Shown here: piece by piece, positions 4,850 to 58,081 of the stretch
Numbering within the stretch: position 1 is the stretch's first letter
Layout of the letters: each line of letters starts with the position of its first letter
Origin: a virus
Lineage: Duplodnaviria > Caudoviricetes
IMG/VR virus record: IMGVR_UViG_3300024290_000003
Span: 2,163 to 66,162 of that record
Length of the DNA stretch: 64,000 nucleotides
Strand: one strand, 5' to 3'
Notes under the pieces: generated by a model
Told to the model about the DNA's origin: nothing
The model's input: only the letters and a program-made list of their open reading frames with translations
Databases searched by the model: none
Program-made: the position numbers and the translations under genes

Positions 4850-6571
4850 ATGGGTCCAGTATCAAACTCGATGGGCGGTCTACCGCCGTGGCTGCTGGCG
4901 CTCATTCAACAGGGCATGGGCGGCGGTGGCGACTCTGGTGACGCTGGCGATGCGGGCGACGAAGGAGCGCCTGAGGAGGCTGGGGGCGGTTCGCCTTACG
5001 ATGGCGGGATCGGCAATCTTCCAAAGAAGCCGGTACCCACGACGCCGCCGTTCCTGCCGGGGCGCATTCCGGGCTTCGGGACACCACCAACGCCGATAGT
5101 ACCGGGTCCAGCTCCAGCGCCACAGCAGGCCCCTACACCCGCTCCGCAACAGGGCGGCTTGCGGTCACGCATCGGCGACATGCTCCAGAGCGGCATCGAC
5201 GCGGCGGCTACGCCCAACGTCGCTTACGGCGGGCCTGTGGATATCATGCGTGGGCTCCAGTCAGCCGATGTGCAACGACGCAACCGAGCGCTACAGCAGA
5301 TGCAGCTTGAGCGGCAACGGCAGCAGGACGAACTGGTACGCCGCAACACCGAATCGGAGATCGCAGCGCGCGGCGAGAACACGGAGACGCTTCGCCAACA
5401 GCGGGAAGCCACTGCCGCACAGAGACAGGAGCTTGCGCAACCGCGTCACGGTCAGATTCAGATTGACGCAGCCTACGCCAAAGAGAATCTGCCGTGGTTG
5501 AGGCCTGATCCCGATGGTACTTACTGGGTCAGCAAAGAAGTAGCGAACACTCTCAGCAAGCCAGAGAAGCCTGACAAAACTCCAAAACCTAGTATAGTTC
5601 CGCCAGGGGCCACGGTTGTTGATGAGAACGGTAAGGTGCTGTTTACAGCTCCGCCCAAGGATACCAAAGAACCGCCTAACGTCACCGAAGCGCAACTTGC
5701 GTGGATGGCAGAACACGATCCAGATCCGCAAGTGCGCAAGGATTCAAAGGCTGCGCTGAAAGGTCTTGCCAGCACAAAGCGCGAATCCACCGTCATTCGT
5801 GTGAACGAAGGCCAGCAAGAAAAGATATCTGAGAATCGCGCAATCAATCAGGCGTTCAATGACGCTGGCGGCGACTGGAATAAGGTTCTCGATAACGTTC
5901 GCGCTGGTAAGTATCCAGACTACGGATCGCAGATTGCCGACCATGCGCAGAAGATGGCCAAACTGCCGAGCGATTCCGCACGGCGGGTCGCATCGGCTGA
6001 CGCCACTGTGGATCAGGTCAAAGAAGCCATCGACGCCGTTAAGCGATTCACAACAGCGCACCCGGATTTGGTCGGCCCAGCGATCAATCCCACGAATCCG
6101 ATGCAGTCCCATCCACTGAATGCGCTCACGCGGCGAGCGGTAACGGCGGCTGGCGCTGAGCCTGCCGATATCGGCGAAGTGGACACTGCTCTCGAATCGG
6201 CGCTGGCGCTTCAGCCGGGGCAGCATAACTTCAGATCGCAATCGGCGCTCGACAATTTCAAGAAAGCGGCTGGAGTGGACCCGCGCACCGGGAAGGCGGA
6301 CGGCAGCCGGGGATGGTTGGTCAACCCCGACAAGGTGATTTCTGCGCTTCAAGGAATCTCCGACTTCAACCAAAAGTTGAAGAGAGACATTATCAGCACT
6401 ACTTCTGGCGGGACGCCGGCAACTGGTGGTCATCCAGCGGGCCGCAAGGCAAGTCCAGCCGCAGCGCTACCGCCCGAAGCTAAAGCGAAGTTGAAAGAAG
6501 GCGTTCACACTACGTTCGCCAACGGACAGACGTGGATGCTTCAAGGCGGTCAGCCGGTACAGGTTCAATAA
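4850..6571 (+). CDS. Internal virion / DNA ejection protein
   Basis: 573 aa; Pro/Gly N-terminus, coiled coil, IVPPGATVVDENGKVLFTAP and TTFANGQTWMLQGGQPVQV motifs typical of podovirus injection proteins. Confidence 0.6.
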   Translation: MGPVSNSMGGLPPWLLALIQQGMGGGGDSGDAGDAGDEGAPEEAGGGSPYDGGIGNLPKKPVPTTPPFLPGRIPGFGTPPTPIVPGPAPAPQQAPTPAPQQGGLRSRIGDMLQSGIDAAATPNVAYGGPVDIMRGLQSADVQRRNRALQQMQLERQRQQDELVRRNTESEIAARGENTETLRQQREATAAQRQELAQPRHGQIQIDAAYAKENLPWLRPDPDGTYWVSKEVANTLSKPEKPDKTPKPSIVPPGATVVDENGKVLFTAPPKDTKEPPNVTEAQLAWMAEHDPDPQVRKDSKAALKGLASTKRESTVIRVNEGQQEKISENRAINQAFNDAGGDWNKVLDNVRAGKYPDYGSQIADHAQKMAKLPSDSARRVASADATVDQVKEAIDAVKRFTTAHPDLVGPAINPTNPMQSHPLNALTRRAVTAAGAEPADIGEVDTALESALALQPGQHNFRSQSALDNFKKAAGVDPRTGKADGSRGWLVNPDKVISALQGISDFNQKLKRDIISTTSGGTPATGGHPAGRKASPAAALPPEAKAKLKEGVHTTFANGQTWMLQGGQPVQVQ

Positions 6572-21417: not shown

Positions 21418-21492
21418 TGGTCCAGGCGGCTGGATTCGAACCAGCGTGGGCTTGCTCCCAAGGCAAGTGGGTGGCCGCTACCCGACGCCTGG
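21418..21492 (-). tRNA. tRNA-Pro(TGG)
   Basis: CCAGGCG/CGCCTGG acceptor, CTTGC-CTTGGGA-GCAAG, GTTCGAATC, ACCA end. Confidence 0.9.
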
Positions 21493-21496
21493 ATTT

Positions 21497-21571
21497 TGGT
21501 GGACTCGCTCGGATTTGAACCGAGATCTGACTGGGTGCAGGCCAGCCGCTCTCCCGTTGAGCTACAAGCCC
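21497..21571 (-). tRNA. tRNA-Ala(TGC), atypical C33
   Basis: G3:U70 and A73 alanine identity; GCTGG-CCTGCAC-CCAGT; GTTCAAATC; CCA. Confidence 0.85.
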
Positions 21572-21619
21572 ACAAGAGAGCGATTTACGGGCGTGCTGAT
21601 GATGATGGGGTTGGAGGAT

Positions 21620-21696
21620 TGGAGCCGGTGACAGGAATCGAACCTGCGCAGTCCGCTTTACAGGAGCGGTGCTCAGCCAACGCGAGCGACACCGGC
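21620..21696 (-). tRNA. tRNA-Thr(TGT), atypical C33
   Basis: GCCGGTG/CACCGGC acceptor; CCGCT-CCTGTAA-AGCGG; GTTCGATTC; CCA. Confidence 0.85.
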
Positions 21697-22787: not shown

Positions 22788-23564
22788 TTGTGGCACACTT
22801 GCTCTACCGTGTGGATACAACTTCTGCGGGGCGGGGCGGTCATAGCTCTCGTCTTTCTGTTATCCCGCTATCTCTGGCTCGGCCTCGCTCGCCGCTATCG
22901 ATTCTTCTGCACCTATGCCGCCGTCCAGCTCACCGTAACGATCTCGTTCGCCTACTTCTTTGACTTACGCTCGCAAGCCTACGCTGTGGCGTGGGTGCTC
23001 TCGCGCTGGATTATAATCGCGCTACAGATCGCCGCCGCCGCTGAGGTCTATTGGATGATCGCTTATGCGCCACGCGGCACCCGCTGGCTTCCGCTGGTGG
23101 TCATGCTGCCCGTTGCCGCCCTCGGCTCCGGCGGCTTGATGGTCGTCCAAGGCTACGCCATCACTCCCGATTCCGGCTTCCTCCGCATCCTTCAAATCAC
23201 CTGCCTCGTATATTCCTCGCTCAGCTTCGCCGTCGTAATCGGTCTCCTGCTTCTCGCCGTGTTCCTGATTCTGGACGCGCAGCGCCACAATACAGTTGTC
23301 TATTGGCTCGGCCTGATGACGTACTTCACCATTCAGGGGCTGACGTTCTTTCTGCAATACATCGTTGCACTGAAGTGGGAATTGCTCTATGCGGCATTCC
23401 TGCCCGCTAATGCGGTCGTGCTGCTGTTGTGGGGATTGCTGACCACTAGCGCCGGAGAGCGGCCGCCGCCAGCGGTTAGACGACACACGCCATTTGCGGA
23501 TAAGATCCGTAAGAACGGCGTGGTACGGCGGTTCAAACTTGAGTGGGAACGCGCCGCGATCTGA
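22788..23564 (+). CDS. Seven-TM membrane protein (putative peptide receptor)
   Basis: Seven hydrophobic helices counted by eye, basic C-terminal tail, no kinase domain. Confidence 0.7.
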   Translation: MWHTCSTVWIQLLRGGAVIALVFLLSRYLWLGLARRYRFFCTYAAVQLTVTISFAYFFDLRSQAYAVAWVLSRWIIIALQIAAAAEVYWMIAYAPRGTRWLPLVVMLPVAALGSGGLMVVQGYAITPDSGFLRILQITCLVYSSLSFAVVIGLLLLAVFLILDAQRHNTVVYWLGLMTYFTIQGLTFFLQYIVALKWELLYAAFLPANAVVLLLWGLLTTSAGERPPPAVRRHTPFADKIRKNGVVRRFKLEWERAAI

Positions 23565-24006
23565 TCGAGTCCGATAACTGGCGAAAGGATTCCTCCCGCA
23601 GTTTCGGGCGCATTCGGATCTCAAACAACAACATTAAGTCGCGTTTCAAGCGAATCATGTTGGCAAATAAAGCGCTACGTTTACCGGCCCTGTAGGATTG
23701 CAGGCAGGCTTGCAGGTTGACCGCTATCACGTAGCGCGTCAGCGCACCGCAGGCAGCCTTCCGCCGGGTATCGTCCTTGCCGGATTCGCGCATCTCGCGG
23801 ATCGCCTGCGGCTCGTCCCTGGCGTCCAGCACGGGCTTCCAGCGGTCGAAGCCGGATGGGTTGGGATACAGTGGGCCGCTATTACGCCCCGGATGGTCCC
23901 GAAGCGCCTTCATTTCATCAAAGATAAGATTGCACGCCTTTTGAACTGCGGTCAGCGCAAGCTGGTACTCCTCGACTTCTTGGGTCGTCGGGTCCATCGT
24001 TATCAA
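23533..24006 (-). CDS. Hypothetical helical protein downstream of the repressor-like gene
   Basis: 157-aa ORF, same strand as 24218-24547. Confidence 0.55.
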   Translation of the reverse strand: MITMDPTTQEVEEYQLALTAVQKACNLIFDEMKALRDHPGRNSGPLYPNPSGFDRWKPVLDARDEPQAIREMRESGKDDTRRKAACGALTRYVIAVNLQACLQSYRAGKRSALFANMIRLKRDLMLLFEIRMRPKLREESFRQLSDSIRSRRVPTQV

Positions 24007-29366: not shown

Positions 29367-29551
29367 GATTCGCGCATGGATTGTCCGGTAAGTGAGAACT
29401 GGCCAGTGTTAAGTGGTTTAGTTTGCTACCACGCGCATAATTGGCAGAAGTAAGCGGGGGCCTAGATTACACAGGGCCGGGGTAGTTAAGTTGTTGAGTT
29501 TGTGAAGAACCGTTTGGGCGCTTTTTGGGCGCTGGAAAGGCGAAAGGCTGC
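29367..29551. other. Candidate attP
   Basis: Only sizeable non-coding gap downstream of int; GTTAAGTGGTT/GTTAAGTTGTT and tandem TTTGGGCGCT arm-like repeats. Confidence 0.45.
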
Positions 29552-30487
29552 ATGAATTGGGCGTTGATGGACGGCGATGCACTCACGGTTTTACGAACGC
29601 TGGAGAGCGACAGCATCGACTGCTGTGTGACATCGCCGCCGTACTGGGGCTTGCGCGATTACGGGGTGCCTGGACAGCTCGGCCTCGAGCGCACGCCTGA
29701 GGAGTACGTCGCCCGCATGGTGGAAGTGTTCCGCGAAGTGCGGCGGGTGATTCGTGGAACGCTGTGGCTCAACATCGGGGATTCGTATGCGGGATCGAGC
29801 ATGACGGGCGGAGGTAAAAGCCTCGAAACCAATCAGCACTTAGATCGGATGTTTAAGAAACCAAAGCAGGAAGTAAATGCCAAGCCCAAAGACCTCGTAG
29901 GCGTGCCATGGATGCTGGCCTTCGCGCTCCGCTCCGATGGCTGGTACCTGCGCTCCGAGATCATCTGGGCGAAGCCGAACCCGATGCCGGAGAGCGTTAC
30001 GGATCGCCCGACCAAGGCGCATGAGCAGATATTCCTGCTGGCCAAGAGCGAGCGGTATTTTTACAACGCCGATGCGATTCGGGAGGCCGACTCATGTCAG
30101 CAACACCATCGGAATGTGCTCAACGGAGCACCGAGTTTAGAACCATCGGGCGGACTTCGTAATGCCCACGGTGGGTTATGGGGTACTCCAGAAAAGAATG
30201 GATCCGGGCGCAACAAGCGCTCCGTCTGGACCGTCGCCACGCAGCCGACGCCAGAAGCGCACTTTGCCACCTATCCGATTGCGCTGATTGAACCGTGCAT
30301 CCTGGCAGGATCGCCGGAAAGCGGTAGCGTGCTAGACCCATTCGCGGGTGCCGGGACAACGGGACTGGCGGCACTTAAGCACGGGCGCACCTTCGTGGGG
30401 ATCGAACTGAACCCGAAGTACATCGACATCGCCAATCAACGCGCCTACGAGAAGATGCCGCTATTGGCGGCAGAGGCAACCGTATGA
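29552..30487 (+). CDS. DNA methyltransferase, N4-C/N6-A beta class
   Basis: VTSPPYW catalytic motif before VLDPFAGAGTT SAM motif. Confidence 0.92.
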   Translation: MNWALMDGDALTVLRTLESDSIDCCVTSPPYWGLRDYGVPGQLGLERTPEEYVARMVEVFREVRRVIRGTLWLNIGDSYAGSSMTGGGKSLETNQHLDRMFKKPKQEVNAKPKDLVGVPWMLAFALRSDGWYLRSEIIWAKPNPMPESVTDRPTKAHEQIFLLAKSERYFYNADAIREADSCQQHHRNVLNGAPSLEPSGGLRNAHGGLWGTPEKNGSGRNKRSVWTVATQPTPEAHFATYPIALIEPCILAGSPESGSVLDPFAGAGTTGLAALKHGRTFVGIELNPKYIDIANQRAYEKMPLLAAEATV

Positions 30488-33320
30488 CCGCCGCCGCGTT
30501 CATCGCCGAACTCGAAGCCGCGCTGAAGGAGACGCCGGGTGCGCAGGCCGTTTGCGTCGGACAGCTACAGATGGCGAAGGCGATCGCGCTGCTGCGGGCG
30601 GGGGAGGCGATGTCGGATTCCGGACCATACCACGTAAGTCGCTTGTCTGCTTGGTCCGCGTGGGACGAAGCAGCCGCCATGTCAACTGAGTGGCGCGAGG
30701 TGCCGCGATGAACTGGAGACCTATCAAGTGCGGTTTCTGTGGGCTAGAAACCAACAATTCCGACAAGCTTTGCAACACCTGTTGGGAAGTCATAAAGCGG
30801 CTTAAGGGAATGCCCCCGGCAGTAGTCAATAAGATCCTGATCTACTGCGGACACACCCCGGTTATTGAGGCGCCGCGATGAACGAGGCCCGCTACGTGGT
30901 CGGTCTGCCGGAAGGTGGCATGAAAATCGTGATCGTTCCAAACGAACTGCGGGATGCCATCAACGCGCACCTTGACGCCGCGATAGCCCGAGCGCCCGGA
31001 GCGGAGATGGACCGCGAGTACTTCTATTCGGTGCTGCTCGCATTCTTCGATGAGAACGGCTACCTGCCGGATTTCACGCTAGAGAAATTCAAGACAGTCA
31101 TGACCATCACCGATCTGCTCACCGAAATCGACCGCATGATCGCGGAGAACAATGACCCGGCGGCACTCGCCAACTTGGGCGCGGTCCTCCAGGTGAGGGG
31201 CGATGAGGCCATCCGCAAGGCCGTGGAGATTGTGCTGAAGAAGGGAGGGCGAGCCGCATGAGTTTGAGTTCTGGAGTCATCTCAACACACGACGTTCCGC
31301 AACCCTGGAGTGTTTGTAAGGCCTGCGGTTCAAGAATGAAAACGATGCCAGCCAATTACGGAGATCAGCATCGTTGTGGACCTTACGAATGGGCTGAAAG
31401 AACGAATGCGTTGCTGGAGCGGTTGATTGATATCGCTGTGGCCTTCGATGAAGCACGCAGGGGATTGCGATGACCACGATTCGCGGCACACGGCCCCGGC
31501 GCGTACCGACGTGGCTGATCCTGCTGTTCGACGCGGTGGCTCTGGTAGCTGTACTGTTCATGGCGGGCGCGTTCGGCGATGTCGGCGCGAGATTGGCGGG
31601 TGGACGATGAGCTTTACGCCGGGACCGTGGAAAGCAGTGCCGCTTGCCTCGGGAATAACCATACAGACCGACCCAGTTGATCTTCGGCGCAGTGGTATCG
31701 CAGAAGTTCGTCTTTGGCCGGGGAACGAAATAGCTAAGGGTAACGCCAGACTGATCGCCGCCGCTCCAGATCTACTGGAAGCGTGCAAAGCGGGTCGCCA
31801 GAAGCTCGTCACTTACGTTTCGGTTTACTCGGGAGATAAGGAATTGCGAAAGCTCCTGGACATGTGGGATGCCGCCATCGCCAGAGCCGAGGGCCGCACA
31901 TGACCGAGCTCCGCAACACGACCGTGCAGGTGAGCGCAGAGGGCACCATCATCATCCGCATCCGCGAGACGGGCCGGGTGCTCACGATCACGCGGAAGCT
32001 GGCGAATACCGAGATGGTCGCGCTGGAGACAATGCTGGCGCGGCAGGCGGATAAGGGGGCGGCTTAGATGAAAAAAGAACCAACTGAGAAAGTTATCGAG
32101 ACTTCAACCATTCGGCTCAGTGCCGATGAGACCCGCACCATTATGCGGGCTTCAATTAAAGGCAACTGTAGCAATGATTGGCGATGTTCCAGTCTCGTTG
32201 GCATGGGAATAATGCGCAAGGTACGTTCGACGCCCGATGAGTCTGTTGATAAAAAGCGAGAAGAGTTATGGAACAGAATATCGAAGGCCGTAGAAAAGCG
32301 AAATCGGACAGCGCTCGATTCTGCATCCAGCGAATTGGGCAAACTGGACAGGGACAAAGAGGCATACGTCTACGTGCTCACTGATATCGGAAAGCAAATA
32401 GCGCGTGGGATCACCGTGCGACTAAACGGACAATACGCATGACCGACGAACAGCGGCATCGCCTCGACATCGCCGAAGCCTACGCGCATCTGTTCTGGGC
32501 GCGTGCGCTGAACCCTGGCGTGGCGCGGGATGCGTTCGTCCGTGAAGCGAGAGCAGAAATTCGCCGGCTGAACCCGCCGGATGACGAGGAGAGCGAGTTG
32601 GAAGCGCGGCGCCGTCCGTGGCGCGGAGGAATGGTCGCGTGACGTCTGTCGAGCGTGCCGCGCATCTCTACGGGTGCTTCTATTCGTGGAAGGCTGCGGA
32701 AATCTGCAAAGAGGAAGGCATCTCAGCCGCGGACATGAAACGCGGTTACGAATTGTACCAAGCACGGCGAGATCAGCAGCTATTCGATGCGCGGTACTAC
32801 GGTTCGCCGGAGTACGGTCGTATCACGTTAGATGAAGCTGGACTCGCGGAGGCAGTGCACGAAGAGGAGAGATTATGCCAGCAACACAAGAAGCAATAGC
32901 GGCGGCGCTCGCCGAAGAGTCGCCGTGGAGTGATGGAGTGAAGTCGCTCATCAGGTGGCAATTCGAGTTGCATAGCGATTTCAAAACCGCGCTCTGGAAT
33001 GCGATTAAGACAGCGGACCAAGAGAACCTGTTGCGGCTGTCTTACGGGTTCCCGGAGGAAGTCAAGGCGTTCATCCACTGGAATTCCGGGGATCTCGGAG
33101 AGCAACTGCGTAAGTCAGGACTGGAGATATAACAATGTCGCGTAAAGCGCAATCAATCGAAGAAACAATCGGCGGCTATTTCGCCACGGCTACCGCTGAA
33201 CAGTGTCGCCAGATGATGCTGATGGCTCGCGGAATCATGAACGCGCGGTTCCCGAAGCAACCGGCGACGCGCAAGCCGCGCAAGAAGGGGGAGCCAAATG
33301 TCAGCGCAGCCGCAAACTAG
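30484..33320 (+). other. Run of about 12 small coupled early ORFs, including a TPGPW...NARLIAAAPDLLEA protein (31607-31903)
   Basis: Continuous start/stop overlaps; common phage early motif. Confidence 0.6.
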
Positions 33321-34299
33321 TCAGCGTATCCCGGCTATTGATTATCACGCCGCTCCAGGTCTATCGAATAGCGCTCTCGCTGACTTGGCTGTTTCGCCGC
33401 TGCGGTTCTGGCACTTGCATGTGAATCCCAACCGACCAGGGGAGGAATCCACGCCCTACCTGCAATTCGGAAGCGCCTTGCACACTGCTGTCTTGGAGCC
33501 CGATGAATTCGAGAAACGATATGCCTGCAAACTCGACCCAACGCTATACCCGAATTTGCTGGATACGATGGACGATCTGAAGGCGTGGCTCACGGAGCAT
33601 GGGATGCAGACCAGCGCCAAGCGAAAGCGAGAACTGGTGGATCGCGTACACGCCAAAGACCCAGACGTCCCTATTCTTGAACTGCTGAAAGAAGCGCACG
33701 ATGCAAAGCACGAGGGCAAGATTCAGTTTACCGTGGAGGACTGGATGCGGATCGGAGGTGCCGCTCACTCGCTCAGGAGTGAGCCCAAGGTAGCCGAGAT
33801 ACTGACAAATGGCGATGCGGAAGTGTCTTGCTTTGTCACCGACCCAGAGACGGGTGTACCGCTCAAGGCTCGGTTCGATTGGGTAACTCCCAAATGCACG
33901 CTAGACCTTAAGACCTTTTCTCAGCAACGATCCAAGACAATCGACAAGACTATCGCCGATGCTATTTGGTACGAGCGTTACTACATTCAGGCCTACTTTT
34001 ATAGCTTGGTGCGGGCAATCTCAAGCGGAGACACGACTGCCGCAGGTCCGCAAAAGGCACCAGAGTTCATCATGGCATTCGTTGAAAGCGAAGAGCCGCA
34101 CGAAGTTCGCATACGATCCTTTCGCCCGAAGGTGGCTGGCGAAATTAATCTGTTCTGGCAACGAGCGCGAATTGAGGTTCACGAGCTGATTCGACTGTAT
34201 GCAGATTGCTTAGATCGATTCGGGGATAAGCCGTGGCGCGATCCACGCGATGTAGATCCACTGGAAGATCACGAGTTGCCGGCATTGTTAGCGAGTTGA
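33298..34299 (+). CDS. RecE/DUF3799-like PD-(D/E)xK exonuclease
   Basis: YHAAPGLSNS, FGSALHTAVLEP, KARFDW, DLKT, YYIQAYFY. Confidence 0.85.
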   Translation: MSAQPQTSQRIPAIDYHAAPGLSNSALADLAVSPLRFWHLHVNPNRPGEESTPYLQFGSALHTAVLEPDEFEKRYACKLDPTLYPNLLDTMDDLKAWLTEHGMQTSAKRKRELVDRVHAKDPDVPILELLKEAHDAKHEGKIQFTVEDWMRIGGAAHSLRSEPKVAEILTNGDAEVSCFVTDPETGVPLKARFDWVTPKCTLDLKTFSQQRSKTIDKTIADAIWYERYYIQAYFYSLVRAISSGDTTAAGPQKAPEFIMAFVESEEPHEVRIRSFRPKVAGEINLFWQRARIEVHELIRLYADCLDRFGDKPWRDPRDVDPLEDHELPALLAS

Positions 34300-34305
34300 A
34301 ACCCT

Positions 34306-35316
34306 ATGGCATTCATTAAAGCTGTTCGACAAACCGTTCCGATGCTCATCAGCTTGTCTGGTACAAGCGGCAGCGGGAAGACCATGAGTGGGCTGCTGTT
34401 GGCCGCTGGCTTGGCTGGAACAAACGGACGCATCGGCATGATAGACGCCGAGAACAAGCGCGGCAGTCTCTACGCGGATGATCCGTTGGTTACGTCCGCA
34501 CTTCCGCAAGGCTACGAGATCGAGGAAATCTCCGCTCCGTATACCCCAAAGAAATACATAGATCGCATCACCGAGGCCGAGAAGTCAGGCATCTCCGTGT
34601 GCATCATTGACAGCACATCGCACGAGTGGGAAGGCGAGGGCGGATGCTGCGACATAGCGGAAAACAACAAATTGCGAGGCATGCCGAACTGGGCAATGGC
34701 AAAGCGCGAGCACAAGAAGTTCCTGGCTTATTGCCTGTCTTCCAACATGCATATCATCTTCTGCCTGCGTGCTAGGGAAAAGATCAAGATCGTAAAGGTC
34801 AATAACAAGGAAGAGATCGTACCGATCGGCATCCAGCCTATTGCCGAAAAGAACTTCGTATTTGAAATGCTGCTATCTCTGCAATTCGACGAGGCGACGC
34901 ATTATGCACGCGGCATTAAAGTTCCGAAGATGCTCGTGGACGTGTTCCCTGGCGACCGGATGATTACGAAGGCCGACGGCGAAAGGATGCGGATCTGGAA
35001 CGAAACTGGTGCCACTGCAGAACCAAACGAGCAACTGAAGAAGCGAGCTCGTTCGTCAGCAGAACAAGGCATGGCGACCTACACGGCGTTCTTTGCGGAA
35101 TTGAGCACTCAGCAAAAAAAGGTCATCCGAGATTCGGTTCACGATGAACTTAAGGCAATCGCGGCATCCGCGGATAAGTCCGACGCCCCTCAGGAAGTCT
35201 CGGAGTTGCCTGATCCATTTGAGTTTAGTCCAGGCCACAGGCTCGTTTGTAAAGGCGTGCTTTACGAGGCTAATAGCGACCTGACGTCTTGGACTAAGGT
35301 TGAGCACGCAGCATAA
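34306..35316 (+). CDS. AAA-family ATPase (Sak4-like recombination partner)
   Basis: Walker A GTSGSGKT; IIDSTSHEWEGEGG; follows the exonuclease. Confidence 0.8.
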   Translation: MAFIKAVRQTVPMLISLSGTSGSGKTMSGLLLAAGLAGTNGRIGMIDAENKRGSLYADDPLVTSALPQGYEIEEISAPYTPKKYIDRITEAEKSGISVCIIDSTSHEWEGEGGCCDIAENNKLRGMPNWAMAKREHKKFLAYCLSSNMHIIFCLRAREKIKIVKVNNKEEIVPIGIQPIAEKNFVFEMLLSLQFDEATHYARGIKVPKMLVDVFPGDRMITKADGERMRIWNETGATAEPNEQLKKRARSSAEQGMATYTAFFAELSTQQKKVIRDSVHDELKAIAASADKSDAPQEVSELPDPFEFSPGHRLVCKGVLYEANSDLTSWTKVEHAA

Positions 35317-35736
35317 ACGGCCCGCCGAGCCAATCGGCAGAAAGGAAAACCCGTATCGCGTAAAGCCAATAGCAAGGTTCGTACCGCGAGATGTTGAAAT
35401 TCCCTGATTAGCCTTCGCGAGGAGGCCGATCAGGTAGGCTGCCGCGAAATGGAGGCATCACGACCGACTCCCGTTCGGTTGCTCCAAACGGCGACAGCCG
35501 ACCTGATCGAAAGGTCACGGTTTGCTGGCGGGGGAGCCACGGTTCCCTGACACCTCGGTTCACGGGCGATGATCCACGCCAGCAGTGAGATTGGATTCGT
35601 CGCGCGGCTGTCATGCGCGTGGCGACGGCTGGCGTCGGCGAGATACGCGCCGAGGGATGCGGACCAGACGATGGATACCGTACCCAGTACCCGCAAGGGA
35701 AAAGGCACCTTGCCACGACGGTGGCACGCCAGCCTG
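35317..35736 (+). ncRNA. Candidate large structured RNA (strand inferred from operon)
   Basis: ~420 nt without a credible coupled gene; nested stems TGCTGGCG/CGCCAGCA and GGCTGGCGT/ACGCCAGCC enclosing several hairpins. Confidence 0.55.
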
Positions 35737-35756
35737 AGTTTGAAGAAAGGAAGCAA

Positions 35757-36245
35757 ATGCAGCCAACCGATACAACACAGACCGTACAAGTTTCAGAGGA
35801 ACTGGTGCAGTCAGTAATTGATAACTACAAACGCCAAGCAGCGACTCACAACGCTCATGTAGACGTGATTTGGAAAGATATGTGGGATTCGGTGTACGAC
35901 TCCCGCTCGCGGGGATTCCATGCACCTGACCCGCCGCAGCAATTCTACTGGGTTGCCAATGAACCGCTGCTGCGCCAGATCGCAGGCATGATCGGAGGGA
36001 TTCCTGGCGTCGATCCATTCATCGACATACCTGCGCCTCCGATTCCGCCGCCTGCGGTGGCTCACCCGAGCATTCTAGTCACAACCGAGCCATCTCTGAT
36101 CCCTGGCTCATTCTTGGCTCAAGGCGATAGCCCATCGGTGCCAGAGGGCGCGAGGGCACCGGACGCCAGCGGCAGGATCTACCAGAAGAAGGTGTTCCTG
36201 CATACGCCGTGGACGACAATCGCGGGCTGGATACCGATAGCGTAG
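35757..36245 (+). CDS. Pro-rich hypothetical protein
   Basis: GAAAGGAAG RBS before MQPTDTT. Confidence 0.6.
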   Translation: MQPTDTTQTVQVSEELVQSVIDNYKRQAATHNAHVDVIWKDMWDSVYDSRSRGFHAPDPPQQFYWVANEPLLRQIAGMIGGIPGVDPFIDIPAPPIPPPAVAHPSILVTTEPSLIPGSFLAQGDSPSVPEGARAPDASGRIYQKKVFLHTPWTTIAGWIPIA

Positions 36246-36332
36246 CGACTTTCGGCAGCGCCGGGAGCGTTGCTACAGGCGTTTCCCGCTGCCGGGACTG
36301 GGCCGGTGTTGTGCTAAAGGGGGCATCGGCCC

Positions 36333-36912
36333 ATGAAAGGACTTATGGACAATAGCGAACAACTCAGCCCAATGGACCGGCTCGCCGTGGGCCTGCTGAT
36401 AGAATCCGCCGCGCCGGATCGCGACCGCCTGATCCACGCGCAAGCGGATTTGGCACACAGCCTCTACGCCGAGCGCACGGAGTGGCGTACCCAGGCGCTG
36501 CGCAATCAGTGGGGCGCCGCGCTACTCGGCTGCACGGTCGGCGTCATTGGGTCGGTGCTGCTGATGGTGCTGTGCGGAGGAATCCGATGACGCTGGAACG
36601 CTCACGGCGGTTCGTCATTGTGCGGGCCGCCATTCTCTCGGGAGGCAGATGACAAAGGGCGAATCAATCTTAGCAAGCAGGCTTCTGGATCAAGCCTCCG
36701 TAGAGTTCCATGAACACGGCTGTAACGACATGGACCCTGAGTACTTTGAGGATTTGGAGCCGGAAGACATCCTGCAGTTGGTCGATGGATACAACGAATG
36801 GCGCAGCGGTGGATGTGGTGGTGAAAATTGGGAGCCAGTAACTATCAGGAATATCGGTGATGACGAGTGGATGGCCTATCTAGCACACGTCATCGGGAGA
36901 CGTGCCGCGTGA
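36333..36912 (+). other. Small ORFs (36333-36590 with C-terminal TM; 36649-36912 acidic)
   Basis: RBS and coupling. Confidence 0.5.
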
Positions 36913-37039
36913 CCATCGCCCTATCGCTGGCCATCCTGTGCGCCGCCGCTGCCCTGGCTTGGGTCTGGTGGACGCGCGACCGCGACCTGCTGCGGAATTC
37001 GCGGAGCCAGGCGCTGCGGAAGCTGCTGGAGAAGGCGCA

Positions 37040-37780
37040 ATGAAGCCGCTGGCTTTGGATCTCTTCTGTGGTGCTGGTGGGGCAACCAAGGGACTGCAAT
37101 GTGCTGGCTTCCACGTAACGGGAGTGGATATCCGGCCACAGCCTAAGTACTGCGGAGATCTGTTCTACGAGGCCGATGCGATGACGTTTCCACTCGATGG
37201 CTATGACTTCATCTGGGCGAGTCCGCCCTGCCAGGCACACACGACCATGAAGTCGATGTGGAACGCCAAGGACCATGCAGACCTGATCCCAGCAACGCGC
37301 ACACGACTTATTTCATCGGGTCTTCCGTGGACGATGGAAAACGTTCCCGGATCTACTCTGATGGACGGCGGGTTCTTTCTATGTGGGTCAATGTTTGGAC
37401 TTGGAGTTGAAGTCTATGACGGCTGGCGGCAATTGCGAAGGCATCGGTGGTTCGAGTCCACCATTCACGTGCTGGTCCCACCATGCCGTCATAACGGCCC
37501 GACGATAGGATTCTACGGAGATCACGCCCGCGACCGGCGGCGGAAAGCTGGAGTCAGGGACAGGGGTCTCGACTTTCCCGATGCGGATAAGTTGGAACTC
37601 GGCCGCAAGGCGATGGACATGCCGTGGTCTGACTGGGCTGGCATCTCGCAAGCGATCCCGCCAGCTTATTCCGAATTCATCGGCAGGCAGGTTATGGAGC
37701 TTTTGGAGCACTCGGCTGACAGGCAGCAGCAACGGCGCGAGAAGCGCGAGGCCGAGCTGCGGGAGTTGGTGACGCTGTGA
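37040..37780 (+). CDS. DNA cytosine-C5 methyltransferase (short phage type)
   Basis: LDLFCGAGG, WASPPCQ, MENV, SQAIPPAY. Confidence 0.88.
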   Translation: MKPLALDLFCGAGGATKGLQCAGFHVTGVDIRPQPKYCGDLFYEADAMTFPLDGYDFIWASPPCQAHTTMKSMWNAKDHADLIPATRTRLISSGLPWTMENVPGSTLMDGGFFLCGSMFGLGVEVYDGWRQLRRHRWFESTIHVLVPPCRHNGPTIGFYGDHARDRRRKAGVRDRGLDFPDADKLELGRKAMDMPWSDWAGISQAIPPAYSEFIGRQVMELLEHSADRQQQRREKREAELRELVTL

Positions 37781-38596: not shown

Positions 38597-39229
38597 GACT
38601 CGATTGCACGGTCGAGGAAGGCTACCGCGAGCTGGCTGATGACGCGCGGGAATTGTTAGATGAGGGGCTTGCGATTCTGAGGCGCGACATCATGCGCTTC
38701 GACGAAGACAACGATGACTACCCGCTGCCATCACAACGGGCGCTACTGGAGCGGAAGAAGAAGGTTTGCAAAGCTGTTACGCGCTGGATGGCCGATCTAA
38801 CCCGCCTGAAGACACGGGCGCTGATCGAGAAGTGACCGGAGTGAGCATGAAGCAGGAGAGCCAGGGGTGACAGGCGCGATGCAGCACAACATCGGACTCA
38901 TCATGATCTGCGTGCCCTTACTGGCATGGTGGCTGTGGGGCCTATGGGTGCTCGGCTTCAAGGATTGGATACGAGCCACGGGTGTATGTGCAGCCATTCT
39001 TATATGGTGTGCGATTGCAGGCTATCTTCTATCGAGGCACGGTTGATAGGCGCGAGGGGCGAAACAAATATCGATGAAAACGTTGTATTCACAGGCGCTT
39101 GCTACTATAATGGGAGTCGAGGGATCAACACTCTGGCTCGCTACCAGGGTGCCCAAGACAGTCGGGCGTACCACGGGCTGCGGGTCGCATCCGCAGCCCA
39201 GCTCGAACTCCAATGCGACTGGAGACGAT

Positions 39230-40138
39230 GTGGCTAAACAGCTACCGTACTACCCCTATTACACAGCCGACTTCCGCGAGAGCAAGCACGTTCTCGCAAT
39301 GAACCTATCCGAAGTGGGCCTTTATCAACTCTCTCTCAATTGGGCCTGGGACTACGGCTCGATACCGGATGATCCAGGTGAACTCGCCAGACTTCTGCAG
39401 CGCGACAGAAACGAAGTGAAGCGAGCGTGGCCGAAGGTGCGACCGTGCTGGGTGCCGTCTCCAGAGCAAGGCCGCTTGGTCAATCAGCGGATGGAAGCTG
39501 AGCGTGTCAAGGCAATCGACAAGTCAGATAAGGCCTCAGTATCGGCCAAATACTCACACAGCGCCAGACGTGCGAACGCACTTGCGAAGGCAAAAGCGGT
39601 CGCTATTGCGAACGCAAGTGCGAACGCACTTGCGAACGGTGTTGCGAATCATATTGCGGATGAATTGCATCGCGCGTCTGGTATCTCTTCTGCTGATACT
39701 GAGAATACTTCAGAGAACAGAGAAAACCCAAACGCGCGCGATGCAATAGCGAACGCAATAGCGAACGTTAAATTTGATGTGTTGCCTGGGTGCCAGTTGT
39801 TCATGCAGGAATACCCCGGTGAACTCAACGACTTGGTGCCGCAATTGTACATCTCTCTCATCGAGAACGCTGTTGATGAAGTCAAGCTTTTCATAAACTT
39901 GAAGCTGCACAGACAGTCTCGTAAGTGGAAAGACGGATTCGTTCCGACCGCCGAAAACTTTCTATCGAAGGGCATCTGGAAGTTTCCGCCGCCGAAGGAA
40001 CCAGACAAGCCTAAATCCAAACTCGATGAGCAACTTGCGCAGGTGGTGGCTCAGATGGCCAGCGAGCCAAGGCCGGAACCCAAGCGCAGCCCGAAGGAAA
40101 TTCACTTGGAAAATCTTAGGCAGAAAGGCGAGATGTGA
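39230..40138 (+). CDS. Replication initiator, YdaU/DUF1376 family
   Basis: LPYYPYYTADF...EVGLY...W..GSIPDD...RLVNQRM; C-terminal FVPTAENFL. Confidence 0.85.
   Translation: MAKQLPYYPYYTADFRESKHVLAMNLSEVGLYQLSLNWAWDYGSIPDDPGELARLLQRDRNEVKRAWPKVRPCWVPSPEQGRLVNQRMEAERVKAIDKSDKASVSAKYSHSARRANALAKAKAVAIANASANALANGVANHIADELHRASGISSADTENTSENRENPNARDAIANAIANVKFDVLPGCQLFMQEYPGELNDLVPQLYISLIENAVDEVKLFINLKLHRQSRKWKDGFVPTAENFLSKGIWKFPPPKEPDKPKSKLDEQLAQVVAQMASEPRPEPKRSPKEIHLENLRQKGEM
39571..39768 (+). repeat. Origin iterons within initiator gene
   Basis: TGCGAA at 39571, 39583, 39607, 39619, 39631, 39643 (12-bp period) plus GCAATAGCGAAC twice. Confidence 0.75.
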
Positions 40139-44591: not shown

Positions 44592-45521
44592 TTAGCGGGC
44601 CTCCTGTACCTCGGTGTAGGCGTATTTCATAGCGTACTTGCGTTGATCCTCTGGCAGTGGAAAGCAGATGTTAGGTACAGCTACGGTGCTTGGGTTGAGC
44701 TTTACAATCGGCTCCCAGCGTCCGCGAATCTTGACCGCCTGTTTGCCCTTGAGCGTTTCTTTGGTGAACACTTCCCGGCCGCAAGTCGCTAAGCAGTGCT
44801 CGTAAAACTCTAGCTTTTCGTGCTGTTCGTCAAGCAACACTGTCAAACGGTTGCGGTAGTCGTCAGCAATTGGCTCGGGCGTGCTGTAGTGATAAAACTT
44901 CCCTTGCAGCCGATTTTCGAGCACAGCGATTTCGGCCTTGGTTTCTTTGATGCGATTGCCCAGATAGCGCGGATCGCTGTATTGCGAACCATCGGCGGAT
45001 GCACGAGCGCAAACAGCGCGGCGCTCGTAATACTTGGCCTTGTCGCCTTCCTCGAAACCGCGTTCAAACGTTTTGCTGATGCGATCGCGGAATCTTCTAT
45101 CGCGTCCCTCGGAGTAATGGCCTACCAGAATCGGCTGGCCTAACGGAATGCAATCTGCCATGCTGTGGGCTCGGTTGTATAGGGCGGTGCTGGATTCCTC
45201 GGCCTTATCCGCTCGATCTTCGTATCGGTCGGCGCGTTCAGCGGCCCGTTCTTGCTTCACTTCGATCTGTTCAGCAAAGCTAAGGCGTTCGCCTTCCGTG
45301 CCTTGGTTCTCAAAACCGAGTTCGGCGAGCAACTGGGCCAGGAAGTATGTGTTTCCGGCCTTTGCTCGGCTGATCCAGCAGCCATTGCGATTGCTCCACA
45401 GGCATGAGTTCTTGAGTTCGTTCCGCTTGGTTTCCGGCAGAGACAGCCAGTCGGCTTTGCCGCCAGTGAAAATGTTCAACTTGTCTGTTTCCAGGTTGTG
45501 GACGTAGTATCGATTAGACAT
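44592..45521 (-). CDS. DUF3560 domain protein
   Basis: ERAAERADRY...IPLGQPILVGHYSEGRDRR...KAKYYERRA signature. Confidence 0.85.
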   Translation of the reverse strand: MSNRYYVHNLETDKLNIFTGGKADWLSLPETKRNELKNSCLWSNRNGCWISRAKAGNTYFLAQLLAELGFENQGTEGERLSFAEQIEVKQERAAERADRYEDRADKAEESSTALYNRAHSMADCIPLGQPILVGHYSEGRDRRFRDRISKTFERGFEEGDKAKYYERRAVCARASADGSQYSDPRYLGNRIKETKAEIAVLENRLQGKFYHYSTPEPIADDYRNRLTVLLDEQHEKLEFYEHCLATCGREVFTKETLKGKQAVKIRGRWEPIVKLNPSTVAVPNICFPLPEDQRKYAMKYAYTEVQEAR

Positions 45522-45550
45522 TGTGAAAGCTCCATTCTTTCTCAGTGTTA

Positions 45551-45625
45551 GGGGAACTGGAAGTTTACGGCTTCCACGTTCCCCGCTTACAGAACCATCT
45601 TAAATCCAACGTTGGATATTGTCAA
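45551..45625 (-). promoter_or_regulatory. sigma70 promoter with spacer palindrome and leader hairpin
   Basis: TTGACA-17-TAAGAT; ATCCAACGTTGGAT palindrome in the spacer; GGGGAAC..TGGAAG/CTTCCA..GTTCCCC hairpin. Confidence 0.75.
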
Positions 45626-45798
45626 GGATTATCTTGAACTATTTTGCGAGCGGCTTTGGTCTCGCGGATCTTGAGCACGCGCGCGCTGGCCTCGGTGCGC
45701 CATCCTGCCGAATGGCAAGCGGGGCAGAATACGGGCAGCTTGGCCGTGCGCCGCAGCCAGGTGTGGTGGCAGCGCAGGCAGGTGAGCTCGGACTTCAT
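45622..45798 (-). CDS. Small Zn-finger protein
   Basis: CLRCHHTW...PVFCPACHS.GW. Confidence 0.65.
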   Translation of the reverse strand: MKSELTCLRCHHTWLRRTAKLPVFCPACHSAGWRTEASARVLKIRETKAARKIVQDNP

Positions 45799-46878: not shown

Positions 46879-47411
46879 TGCGTATACTTGTGCAAAGTAT
46901 GCGCGAGTGTTGATAAATAAGGACTTGACTGCTGCTGTGCCCAATGTATTGCCCAGAACCAGGCAGCCGGCGACGCCATAACGCTCCATCTGCCGGTATT
47001 TCGGCGCTAGGGTGGTCTCGATCCGACGCCGACCCGACCAGAGGGGAGGGGCATCAATCTTTGCAGGGTGCCTCAGCGTGCGGTGCCTGCTGAAGTGGTT
47101 TTCGTAAAAAAAAATATGTGGTTGGGGAGTTTGGGGGATGGGGATTGTTGGGGCGTAGATGGGGGTAGGTTGCGATATGGGGTTTGAGTTAGTGGAGAAG
47201 GGTCGCGCGGTGAGGCGGTGGTGCGGGGAGCACGGGCTGCACCGGGGGAAGGAGTGTCCTGGGTGCCGGGAGGAGCGAAAGTGGACCACTTCTGATTCGT
47301 ATGCGCGGCTGGTAGTGGCGCAGATGTTGAAGCAGATCGAGGCGTTCGAGCGCAGAAGGGCGGTGGGTTGATGTACGGTAGTTATACTTCTGTACGTGGC
47401 CCAAAAAGGGC

Positions 47412-47864
47412 TTGTTTTGGACCACTCTGGTCCAAAAAGGCGGGATTTTGAACCGCTTTTCGAAGGTTCCGCCGGAGGTTTTGTACGATCAAAACCTTAC
47501 CGTAGAGCACCTTAGGGTGTACGGGGCGCTGGCTTCGAGCGTTCGCGGCGGGCGCAACACGACAAACATTGGGCAGCGGCTGATTTCGAAGCTGACGAAA
47601 CTCAGCAAAACCACTGTAGGCAGGAGACTTAAGGAATTGGCAGAGTTCGGGCATGTGGTGTCAGAAGTGGACCACAAAGGGATGCGGGCGCACTTTCGAA
47701 TGATATCGCCGGTATTTGCGGTTTATGATCGCAAAAGCTATGGAAGGAAAGGCGTTAATGTTGGCGGCATGAGTTCGACAGTGCGCGTGGCGAGTGCCTG
47801 GGCGAAGACCAGCGTGGACCGGTCGGAGATCGACGCCATTCTGGGGCGGAAGGAGAGCGCGTGA
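47412..47864 (+). CDS. Winged-HTH protein
   Basis: FSKVPPEVL...LRVYGAL...LSKTTVGRRLKELAEFGHV. Confidence 0.7.
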   Translation: MFWTTLVQKGGILNRFSKVPPEVLYDQNLTVEHLRVYGALASSVRGGRNTTNIGQRLISKLTKLSKTTVGRRLKELAEFGHVVSEVDHKGMRAHFRMISPVFAVYDRKSYGRKGVNVGGMSSTVRVASAWAKTSVDRSEIDAILGRKESA

Positions 47865-55753: not shown

Positions 55754-58081
55754 ATGGCGTCTCAAACCATTCCCGTTCCGGGCACGGTCAAACGTGCGCC
55801 CGATGGTCTCATCGAGGTCAACCGCAGTACCGGCGGCAACGACCAGAAGGATGACGATCGTGCGCAATTGATCGTGAACCGGCAGAAGCGCTCGTACTAC
55901 TGGCAGAAGGACAACTTCTATCCGCAGTTTGAGCAAGTGTACAAGTCGTACAAGTGCGAGCGCGATCCGGTTGCAAAGGATGACAAGCCGAACGAGGCCG
56001 ATCCGACACAGACATCAATCGGGATGCCCGATACGTGGATGGTGGTTCGCCGTACGGTGGCACGCATCACGGCGCAGATTCCGAATCTTCGATTCAACGC
56101 CAAAGATCCGATGATTTCGGAACTGGTAGCGCGAAGCCTGATGTACCAGTGGGATAAGAGCAAGACGCAGCGCATCCAGAAGATCCACGCAACGCAGGCG
56201 GCGCTATTCGGCATCAGCATTCGACCGTGGTTTTGGGCATCGGAGGATTACAAGCGCTTCCGGCGCGTGAATCCGATGAAGCCGCAGCTCGATCCGGCCG
56301 ATACGGACCAGATTATCGCTACTTATGGCGATGAACTGAAAAAGATGGCCGCCCAGCAGGGCTATTCGGTCGAGCAGGCGCTGGAGGACCCCAGTGTTCG
56401 ACCGATCATCATGGCGAACCTGCTGGCCGAGCATTCGCGCGGCGGAATGTTGCCGGTGAAGTACGAATACACCGGCTATGAGGGGCCGAAGTGCGACTTC
56501 CTGTTGATGGCAGATTGCTTCCCTGAGCCAAATTTCAGGTCGCTCCAGAGTTCCAACTGGTTCATCGTCGAGCGGAGGCGCAATCTGCAATGGATGGAGA
56601 AGTTCGTCGAGCGGTACCCCGATTTCCGGCGCGGGTTTCAAGCACTCATGGACAAGTACCCTGACGGCACTGTCTGGAACTACCAGAGCAACGAAGTAGC
56701 GGGGCTGCGGCGCCAGATGGAGAGTGCCATCGGGCGAACCAATAGCGCAAACCAGCAGTATGCTGAAGCCAAGACGAAAGAGTGGACGATTCAGGAACAG
56801 TGGGTTCCGGGTTATGAATCGACGCTCTCGATGGTTGGCGAAAAGAGCGTGTTCCTGGGCGAGATGCCCGCACCATACATGCTGGATGGGAAGATCCCGT
56901 TCACTGAATTGGTGCTGATCGAAGAACTCCTGAGTGGCGTCGGCGACTCGACCGCTCGCGTGATGCGCGGCTTGCAATTGCTCCATGATCGGCAGACGAA
57001 TACGCGCGTCGATTTGACCCACGATATTCTGCGACCGCTCTATGAGACCGATGACCCGGAACTGTACGAGAACGCCGAGAGCAAATTAGCGCGATTCTCC
57101 GGCGGCCGGCTGGTTCTGGTGCAGCGCCGCGGCAGCTTCGGAGTAGTCGGCGAACAGGCGGCAATGGCTGCTGTAGCGAATGGCCTCCAGGACGATCAGG
57201 CGATCAGCCGGTTGCTCCAGATGGTGAGCGGAGAGACCAATATGAGCATGGCCGCGAATGTGGACCCAAGCCAGTCCCGCACGGCTACCGGCGCTCGCAT
57301 CATGGCTTACAACCAGGATGTGCTGACGAAGGATCAAGTCGATTCGTTCAATAATTCGCTGAATGCCGACGCCGAAATGATGTTTCTGCTGAACCGTTCG
57401 GAATTATCCAGCGCAATTGAATTTCAGGCAGGCCAGTACCGGCGTCTCTATACCGAAGGCGAGGACATGATCCGCGAGGAATGGGTCAAGGCCGAGCCAG
57501 AGATGTTCCAGATCGACGGCGAGATCACGGCTGAAGTCGGCTCCACGCTGGCAGATGACGACGAAGCGAAAGTAACCAAAGCGACGAATCTGTTCCACGC
57601 CGCGACGCAGTTTCCGAATCTGCTCAATCCGAAGAAAGCGACGCAGGATTTCATCATTGCGATGGGCAAGGGCAAGGAACTCCAGCAGTGGGCACCGGAC
57701 CCGCAGCCTCCGCCGCCCGAAAAGGAAGTCAATACTAGCCTGACGATTGCGGCGAAATGGGAGAGCCTGACCCCGCAGGAAAAGCAGGCGATCATGAATC
57801 GAGCGCACGTTCAGATTCAGCTTGTGCCGCCGACAGATCCGCAATTGCAGCCACCGCAGCCGCCGCCTGATGTGGGCCCACCGCCCGGTGCCGGAGCGCC
57901 GGGGCCTGATGGTGGTGGCGGTCCTCCCCCCGGTCCTCCGAGCGGTCCAAGCGGCGGCGGACCTGCGCCGGAATCCGCTCCAGCGGGACCATCCGGCCCT
58001 GAGCCGTTGATTGCGGCATCGGCGCTCGCGGCGGCGCGTGGGCGATCTCCGTTAGGCGGGGCGCACGGATTGCCGCAATGA
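55754..58081 (+). CDS. Portal protein
   Basis: 775 aa after terminase; RTATGARI motif; Pro/Gly-rich tail. Confidence 0.8.
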   Translation: MASQTIPVPGTVKRAPDGLIEVNRSTGGNDQKDDDRAQLIVNRQKRSYYWQKDNFYPQFEQVYKSYKCERDPVAKDDKPNEADPTQTSIGMPDTWMVVRRTVARITAQIPNLRFNAKDPMISELVARSLMYQWDKSKTQRIQKIHATQAALFGISIRPWFWASEDYKRFRRVNPMKPQLDPADTDQIIATYGDELKKMAAQQGYSVEQALEDPSVRPIIMANLLAEHSRGGMLPVKYEYTGYEGPKCDFLLMADCFPEPNFRSLQSSNWFIVERRRNLQWMEKFVERYPDFRRGFQALMDKYPDGTVWNYQSNEVAGLRRQMESAIGRTNSANQQYAEAKTKEWTIQEQWVPGYESTLSMVGEKSVFLGEMPAPYMLDGKIPFTELVLIEELLSGVGDSTARVMRGLQLLHDRQTNTRVDLTHDILRPLYETDDPELYENAESKLARFSGGRLVLVQRRGSFGVVGEQAAMAAVANGLQDDQAISRLLQMVSGETNMSMAANVDPSQSRTATGARIMAYNQDVLTKDQVDSFNNSLNADAEMMFLLNRSELSSAIEFQAGQYRRLYTEGEDMIREEWVKAEPEMFQIDGEITAEVGSTLADDDEAKVTKATNLFHAATQFPNLLNPKKATQDFIIAMGKGKELQQWAPDPQPPPPEKEVNTSLTIAAKWESLTPQEKQAIMNRAHVQIQLVPPTDPQLQPPQPPPDVGPPPGAGAPGPDGGGGPPPGPPSGPSGGGPAPESAPAGPSGPEPLIAASALAAARGRSPLGGAHGLPQ

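What the first reader, a model, noticed from the sequence alone, without database searches (positions are those of the whole stretch)
35317..35736. ~420-nt densely base-paired segment in the early operon: candidate novel structured RNA
Seen: the largest break in an otherwise stop/start-coupled operon. It holds hairpin CCTGAT..ATCAGG (35403-35434), GACCT/AGGTC, an 8-bp stem 35523/35577 closing a multibranch domain, GTCGC/GCGAC, and a 9-bp stem 35627/35726 closing four hairpins (TCGGCG/CGCCGA, GCGG/CCGT, CCC-GCAA-GGG, TGCCAC/GTGGCA). It ends just before the next RBS. I do not recognise tmRNA, RNase P, SRP or intron signatures. Inference: an undescribed ncRNA or a large cis-acting leader.
Basis: partly seen in the sequence, partly recalled or inferred. 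Interest (0 to 1): 0.75.

Follow-up and report, generated by a model that had tools for sequence, protein, structure and literature searches.

The report
Structured non-coding gap in phage operon
A 440-base gap between two early genes of a soil phage is probably non-coding and folds into two unusually stable RNA domains matching no known RNA family, but only one short diverged copy from another sample supports it, so function is unproven.

Summary
The 441-nt gap (35317-35757) folds better than shuffles: z -3.50, 0 of 100 as stable. The signal sits in two domains. Domain 35397-35525 has z -4.96. Domain 35597-35740 has z -3.97 on + against -1.58 on -. Across the window the gap ranks 10th of 433 windows, so it is notable but not unique.

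A second soil metagenome holds a diverged 151-nt copy of 35355-35504 with 10 substitutions and six indels, none a multiple of three. That argues against coding there. In hairpin 35411-35426 the changes keep the stem and a GNRA loop. Another contig there joins an identical 35315-35417 to a different upstream sequence.

Rfam gives nothing. No homologue turned up in IMG/VR, GTDB genomes, 45 related loci or 13 related virus records. No ORF in the gap has real relatives. An iteron origin lies elsewhere, at 39571-39783.

Best reading: a new, rare structured RNA segment of the early transcript, probably a cis-acting intercistronic leader. Large-scale covariation and expression are untested.

The parts
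34306..35316 (+). Upstream gene: AAA_24 / Sak4-like recombination ATPase. Its stop codon TAA 35314-16 marks the left edge of the element.
   Evidence: Pfam AAA_24 E 2e-07; phrog_1366 E 4e-64; locus L015 matches residues 1-332
35317..35396 (+). 5' spacer with two weak hairpins, not more stable than shuffles. The left boundary is shared with a second genomic context in run X6.
   Evidence: z -0.59, 60 of 200 shuffles as stable. Contig record 14 of X6 is identical over 35315-35417 but has a different sequence before 35315 (tables 7 and 8).
35397..35525 (+). Domain A: hairpin 35403-35434 with a GCGA loop, long imperfect hairpin 35437-35499, and hairpin 35500-35522 with a GAAA loop. An alternative fold pairs 35428-34 with 35502-08.
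   Evidence: z -4.96 on +, -3.43 on -. Alternative fold -57.6 against MFE -58.0 kcal/mol. 28-nt inverted repeat I1.
35411..35426 (+). Inner stem-loop GCCUUC-GCGA-GGAGGC. The X6 variant has C12>A with G25>T (C-G to A-U), U15>C (U.G to C-G), one base lost on each strand (35413, 35423), and loop GCGA>GCAA, so a GNRA loop is kept.
   Evidence: tables 3 and 4 mapped on the pair table (all these pairs P = 1.00)
35518..35596 (+). Domain B: three-way junction closed by TGCTGGCG / CGCCAGCA. Not more stable than shuffles.
   Evidence: z -1.11, 27 of 200 shuffles as stable; I2
35597..35740 (+). Domain C: hairpin 35597-35625 plus a multibranch domain closed by the 9-bp stem 35627-35 / 35726-34, holding four hairpins, one with a GCAA loop. 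Its stability is specific to the + strand.
   Evidence: z -3.97 on + (0 of 200 as stable) against -1.58 on - (19 of 200); centroid nearly equal to the MFE; I4
35613..35756 (+). Possible N-terminal extension of the next ORF (in-frame ATG at 35613, no Shine-Dalgarno before it). It overlaps domain C.
   Evidence: Codon score in this frame turns positive from about 35560-35620. The ESM Atlas holds the 162-aa form that starts at 35757. The protein database's copy is only 126 aa.
35745..36245 (+). Shine-Dalgarno AAAGGAAG, then the orphan ORF (ATG 35757, 162 aa).
   Evidence: Sequence. Only the window's own protein was found among 5.8 billion. No Pfam or PHROG hit.

Best explanation
The gap is non-coding. 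It is transcribed on the + strand as part of the long early (recombination and replication) operon of a temperate soil phage. Two domains, 35397-35525 and 35597-35740, form a stable, well-defined RNA fold. The most likely role is a cis-acting intercistronic leader for the variable gene cluster that follows (orphan ORFs at 35757, 36333 and 36649). In that role it would be a processing and stability element, or a switch that sets how much of the downstream cluster is expressed. Shown: the structure exceeds shuffles; domain C is strand-asymmetric; the region is non-coding in 35355-35504; one hairpin is preserved in a diverged copy; it belongs to no known family. Inferred: it is transcribed, and it acts in cis. 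About 0.6 that the structure is under selection as RNA; about 0.4 for the cis-leader mechanism.
For: (1) Fold: z -3.50 for the whole gap, -4.96 and -3.97 for the two domains, 0 of 200 shuffles as stable for each.
(2) Strand: domain C has z -3.97 on + against -1.58 on -. For the whole gap the + strand centroid (-181.8) is close to the MFE (-187.9); on - the centroid is -147.9 against -180.4. All neighbouring genes are on +.
(3) Non-coding: the X6 copy of 35355-35504 has indels of +1, -1, +2, -1, -1 and +1. These break the 33-aa and 35-aa + strand ORFs there.
(4) Structure kept: 7 of the 10 substitutions fall at paired positions and touch 6 pairs; 5 pairs stay canonical, including one double change from C-G to A-U. 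The two deletions in the stem lie on opposite strands of the same helix, and the GNRA loop is kept. The variant's MFE is -56.2 against -58.0, with the same three-hairpin layout. Random mutants with the same number of changes average -49.5 +/- 5.5.
(5) Modularity: an identical 35315-35417 is joined to a different upstream sequence exactly at the stop codon.
(6) The element ends at a strong Shine-Dalgarno. No promoter-like site and no + strand terminator-like site lies in 34800-36400.
(7) Near-isoenergetic alternative helices exist in both halves: -58.0 against -57.6, and -103.7 against -100.3 kcal/mol.
(8) GC is 0.60-0.65 against about 0.52 in the flanking genes.
Against: There is only one diverged copy. 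It is 151 nt, at depth 2, from a metagenome contig, and it covers a third of the element. Nothing is known about conservation of 35505-35756. 9.8% of random mutants are as stable as the observed variant. Four of the five single changes at paired positions are transitions that often keep pairing by chance. Compensatory-looking changes in an inverted repeat can also arise by template switching. Nine other 441-nt windows of this window, mostly coding, score as well or better. Parts 35317-35396 and 35518-35596 are no better than shuffles. No homologue was found in any assembled collection searched. Nothing here tests the cis-leader mechanism.
Confidence: 0.4

Rival explanations
1. A free-standing, stable non-coding RNA cut out of the operon transcript that acts in trans, for example on a host or defence protein or as a scaffold, in the manner of other large phage-associated RNAs.
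For: It is large, multi-domain and rich in GNRA loops, with a well-defined ensemble. It behaves as a module with its own left boundary. The neighbouring slot after the AAA_24 gene holds varied accessory genes in relatives.
Against: It has no promoter-like or terminator-like site of its own. It abuts the next gene's ribosome-binding site. No ends or abundance data exist. It is very rare in the databases, unlike known widespread RNA classes.
Confidence: 0.2
2. Functionless filler: a GC-rich remnant left at a mosaic junction (a decayed gene or captured foreign DNA) that folds well only because of its composition and a few chance inverted repeats.
For: The slot after the AAA_24 gene is a hotspot of gene exchange. 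The downstream ORFs are orphans. There are no homologues outside two short contigs. The genome-wide rank is only 10th of 433. Indels that are not multiples of three are also what neutral DNA shows.
Against: Shuffles that keep dinucleotide content do not reach the observed stability: 0 of 200 for each of two domains. Stability is strand-asymmetric. The changes in hairpin 35411-35426 keep the stem and the loop type. No trace of a decayed gene was found by tblastx against 45 related loci, and no ORF in the gap has real relatives.
Confidence: 0.25
3. The last 145 nt are coding: the next gene starts at ATG 35613 (210 aa), so the true gap is about 296 nt and domain C is mRNA structure inside a coding region.
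For: The ATG at 35613 is in frame with no stop before 35757. The codon-usage score in that frame turns positive from about 35560-35620.
Against: There is no Shine-Dalgarno before 35613, and a strong one (AAAGGAAG) before 35757. Two independent gene calls start at 35757 (162 aa) or later (126 aa). No homologue exists to show conservation of the extension.
Confidence: 0.15
4. A DNA-level element: a replication origin, single-strand initiation site or recombination site that works through hairpins in DNA.
For: Domain A is stable on both strands, z -4.96 and -3.43. It sits in the recombination and replication operon.
Against: A classical iteron origin is present elsewhere: about 8 copies of a 12-nt TGCGAACGCANN unit at 39571-39783 inside the DUF1376 primosomal-like gene, which is also the best-folding spot of the window. 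The gap has no iterons or AT-rich tract. Domain C is stable on + only. The stems hold G.U pairs, which are A.C mismatches in the other strand.
Confidence: 0.05

Closest known systems
Intercistronic RNase III processing hairpins of the phage T7 early operon (recalled from general knowledge; no paper read here)
   Same: Structured RNA placed between genes of a phage early polycistronic transcript, with no promoter or terminator of its own. It contains a long imperfect duplex: 28-nt arms, 79% complementary, 35427-35509.
   Different: T7 sites are single hairpins of roughly 60 nt. This element is about 420 nt with about 12 hairpins in two strongly folded domains. No cleavage evidence exists.
Large ornate phage- or prophage-associated RNAs GOLLD and ROOL (Rfam families; bioRxiv 10.1101/2024.12.08.627333 and PMC5737381, seen only as search listing and start of abstract)
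   Same: A large multi-hairpin RNA of unknown function carried by a phage genome.
   Different: No match to these or any other Rfam model even at E up to 10. It is smaller. It is not beside the phage's tRNA genes at 21421-21696. It is known from only one phage lineage.
Riboswitch or attenuator-type 5' leaders
   Same: It ends at the ribosome-binding site of the next gene. It has two sets of mutually exclusive, near-isoenergetic helices.
   Different: No known aptamer matches: the best is Guanidine-III at 13.9 bits against a gathering score of 36. There is no terminator-like hairpin with a U tract on +. It is several times longer than typical leaders.

Membership tests
Any Rfam 15 family (4227 models, including tmRNA, RNase P, SRP, group I and II introns, GOLLD, ROOL, HEARO, OLE, raiA and riboswitches) | Covariance-model score at or above the family's gathering score | tested here: not met
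   The only hits at gathering score in the window are 3 tRNAs at 21421-21696. With E up to 10 on 35200-35850 and 34900-37000, only Guanidine-III (13.9 bits), Bcj11 (14.4 bits) and Ocean-VII (13.1 bits) appear, all far below their cut-offs.
Guanidine-III (ykkC-III) riboswitch | Score of at least 36 bits and a compact H-type pseudoknot | tested here: not met
   13.9 bits, E 2.5-8.2, with a 23-nt insertion where the model has 4. That the two CCAG stretches cannot pair as the consensus CCGG does is my own reading of the printed alignment.
tRNA / tmRNA | Detected by ARAGORN | tested here: not met
   0 genes in 35000-36300
Protein-coding gene (either strand) | An ORF with homologues or codon-level conservation | tested here: not met
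   - strand 102-aa ORF: 0 hits. - strand 119-aa ORF: 4 weak hits, all singleton repeat-derived proteins. No positive codon score in any frame over 35320-35500. Indels in the diverged copy are not multiples of three. The status of 35613-35756 is open.
Iteron-type replication origin | Arrays of direct repeats, usually with an AT-rich tract | tested here: not met
   Only 2-copy repeats of 9-12 nt and a 2-copy 10-nt tandem occur in the gap, and GC is 0.6-0.65. A true iteron array is at 39571-39783.
RNase III-type intercistronic processing site | A duplex of about 20 bp or more in an intergenic part of a polycistronic transcript, and cleavage by RNase III | tested here: inconclusive
   A duplex is present: 28-nt arms, 79% complementary, and the alternative fold is within 0.4 kcal/mol of the MFE. 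Cleavage is not testable with these tools.

The most novel reading that the evidence does not exclude
A new class of large (about 350-420 nt), two-domain structured RNA of soil phages. It would be built around two sets of mutually exclusive helices and act as a sensor or switch, or as a trans-acting decoy or scaffold against the host, rather than as a passive spacer. It is mobile as a module between phage genomes, as the second upstream context in run X6 suggests.
Probability: 0.15. Interest if true: 0.8.

Novelty: new variant of a known kind. Interest (0 to 1): 0.5.

Why it matters
Few bacterial or phage RNAs longer than 300 nt with complex folds are known, and each has proved instructive. 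It would also give a handle on how accessory gene clusters in phage early operons are controlled. As it stands it is a well-documented candidate, not a demonstrated RNA. Its rarity in assembled data is the main obstacle.

Tried and rejected
Homologue hunts, all negative:
- blastn of 35250-35800 against 50,697 phage records.
- blastn, nhmmer and tblastx of the gap against 13 and then 45 related loci fetched through the AAA_24 gene.
- Exact or gapped patterns in viral contigs (0 hits; 18 hits, all only 16-21 nt long by blastn, so chance).
- Two patterns in genome contigs (0 hits).
- The whole records of 13 related viruses (best E 0.033, a 16-nt match).
- Loci found through the downstream 162-aa, 85-aa and 87-aa ORFs (none; 2 loci that share only the 87-aa gene).
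- Earlier notes of this scan (nothing relevant).

A self-comparison within the window found no second copy.

ORFs in the gap were searched as proteins. The four hits to the - strand 119-aa ORF are singleton, repeat-derived sequences, one of them an insect hypothetical protein. I rejected them as homologues.

Sequencing runs: no RNA holder was listed among the 6 runs, so expression is untested. The parts of the stretch without cover in X4, X5 and X6 say nothing.

No covariance model could be built, because only one full sequence is held. The ESM Atlas gave no usable look-alike for the 162-aa ORF.

The supplements of the papers listed were not opened. They may list unnamed RNA motifs that I could not compare.

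Full report
Context. The window is most of a 66,162-base IMG/VR virus record that CheckV rates 100% complete. The finding lies in a long run of + strand early genes:
- N6/N4 DNA methylase, 29525-30487.
- PD-(D/E)XK exonuclease, 33298-34299, and an AAA_24 / Sak4-like ATPase, 34306-35316.
- The gap.
- Three small ORFs without family matches: 35757-36245, 36333-36590 and 36649-36912.
- A DNA methyltransferase, 36902-37780.
- A DUF1376 primosomal-like gene, 39074-40138.

Noticed in passing
window 39571-39783 (inside ORF 39074-40138): About eight copies of a 12-nt unit TGCGAACGCANN in two blocks, with several inverted repeats, inside the DUF1376 primosomal-like gene. It is the best-folding spot of the whole window on both strands (z -4.3 and -5.5). 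It is probably the phage's iteron-type replication origin, placed inside the initiator gene as in lambda (the lambda comparison is recalled).
   Followed up: partly
L001-L015, just downstream of the AAA_24 gene: The gene after the Sak4-like ATPase differs between related phages: SSB in L007 and L009, GapR-like in L011, HTH in L013, Rv2632c-like (weak) in L015, and no family in five others. This is an accessory-gene exchange hotspot.
   Followed up: partly
window 36649-36912; L071 3001-3249 and about 5659-5882; L072 1820-2047: The 87-aa orphan has relatives at 67% and 57% identity in two other IMG/VR contigs. L071 seems to hold two copies about 2.6 kb apart. None of these is preceded by anything like the gap.
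   Followed up: partly
window 35757-36245: Three different start calls exist for this orphan: 126 aa in the large protein collection, 162 aa in the ESM Atlas, and 210 aa from the longest ORF. It has no homologue and no confident fold (Atlas pLDDT 0.63, pTM 0.36).
   Followed up: partly
window 56191-56631, 45313-45753, 47371-47811, 23410-23850: Other 441-nt windows that fold better than the gap after correction for composition. They were not examined. 45313-45753 and 23410-23850 include intergenic sequence by the ORF list.
   Followed up: no
window 35641-35727: Weak resemblance to the Guanidine-III riboswitch consensus (shared GACGA, CCGUACCC and ACGACGG strings). It scores 13.9 bits against a cut-off of 36, with a 23-nt insert, so it is most likely chance.
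   Followed up: yes
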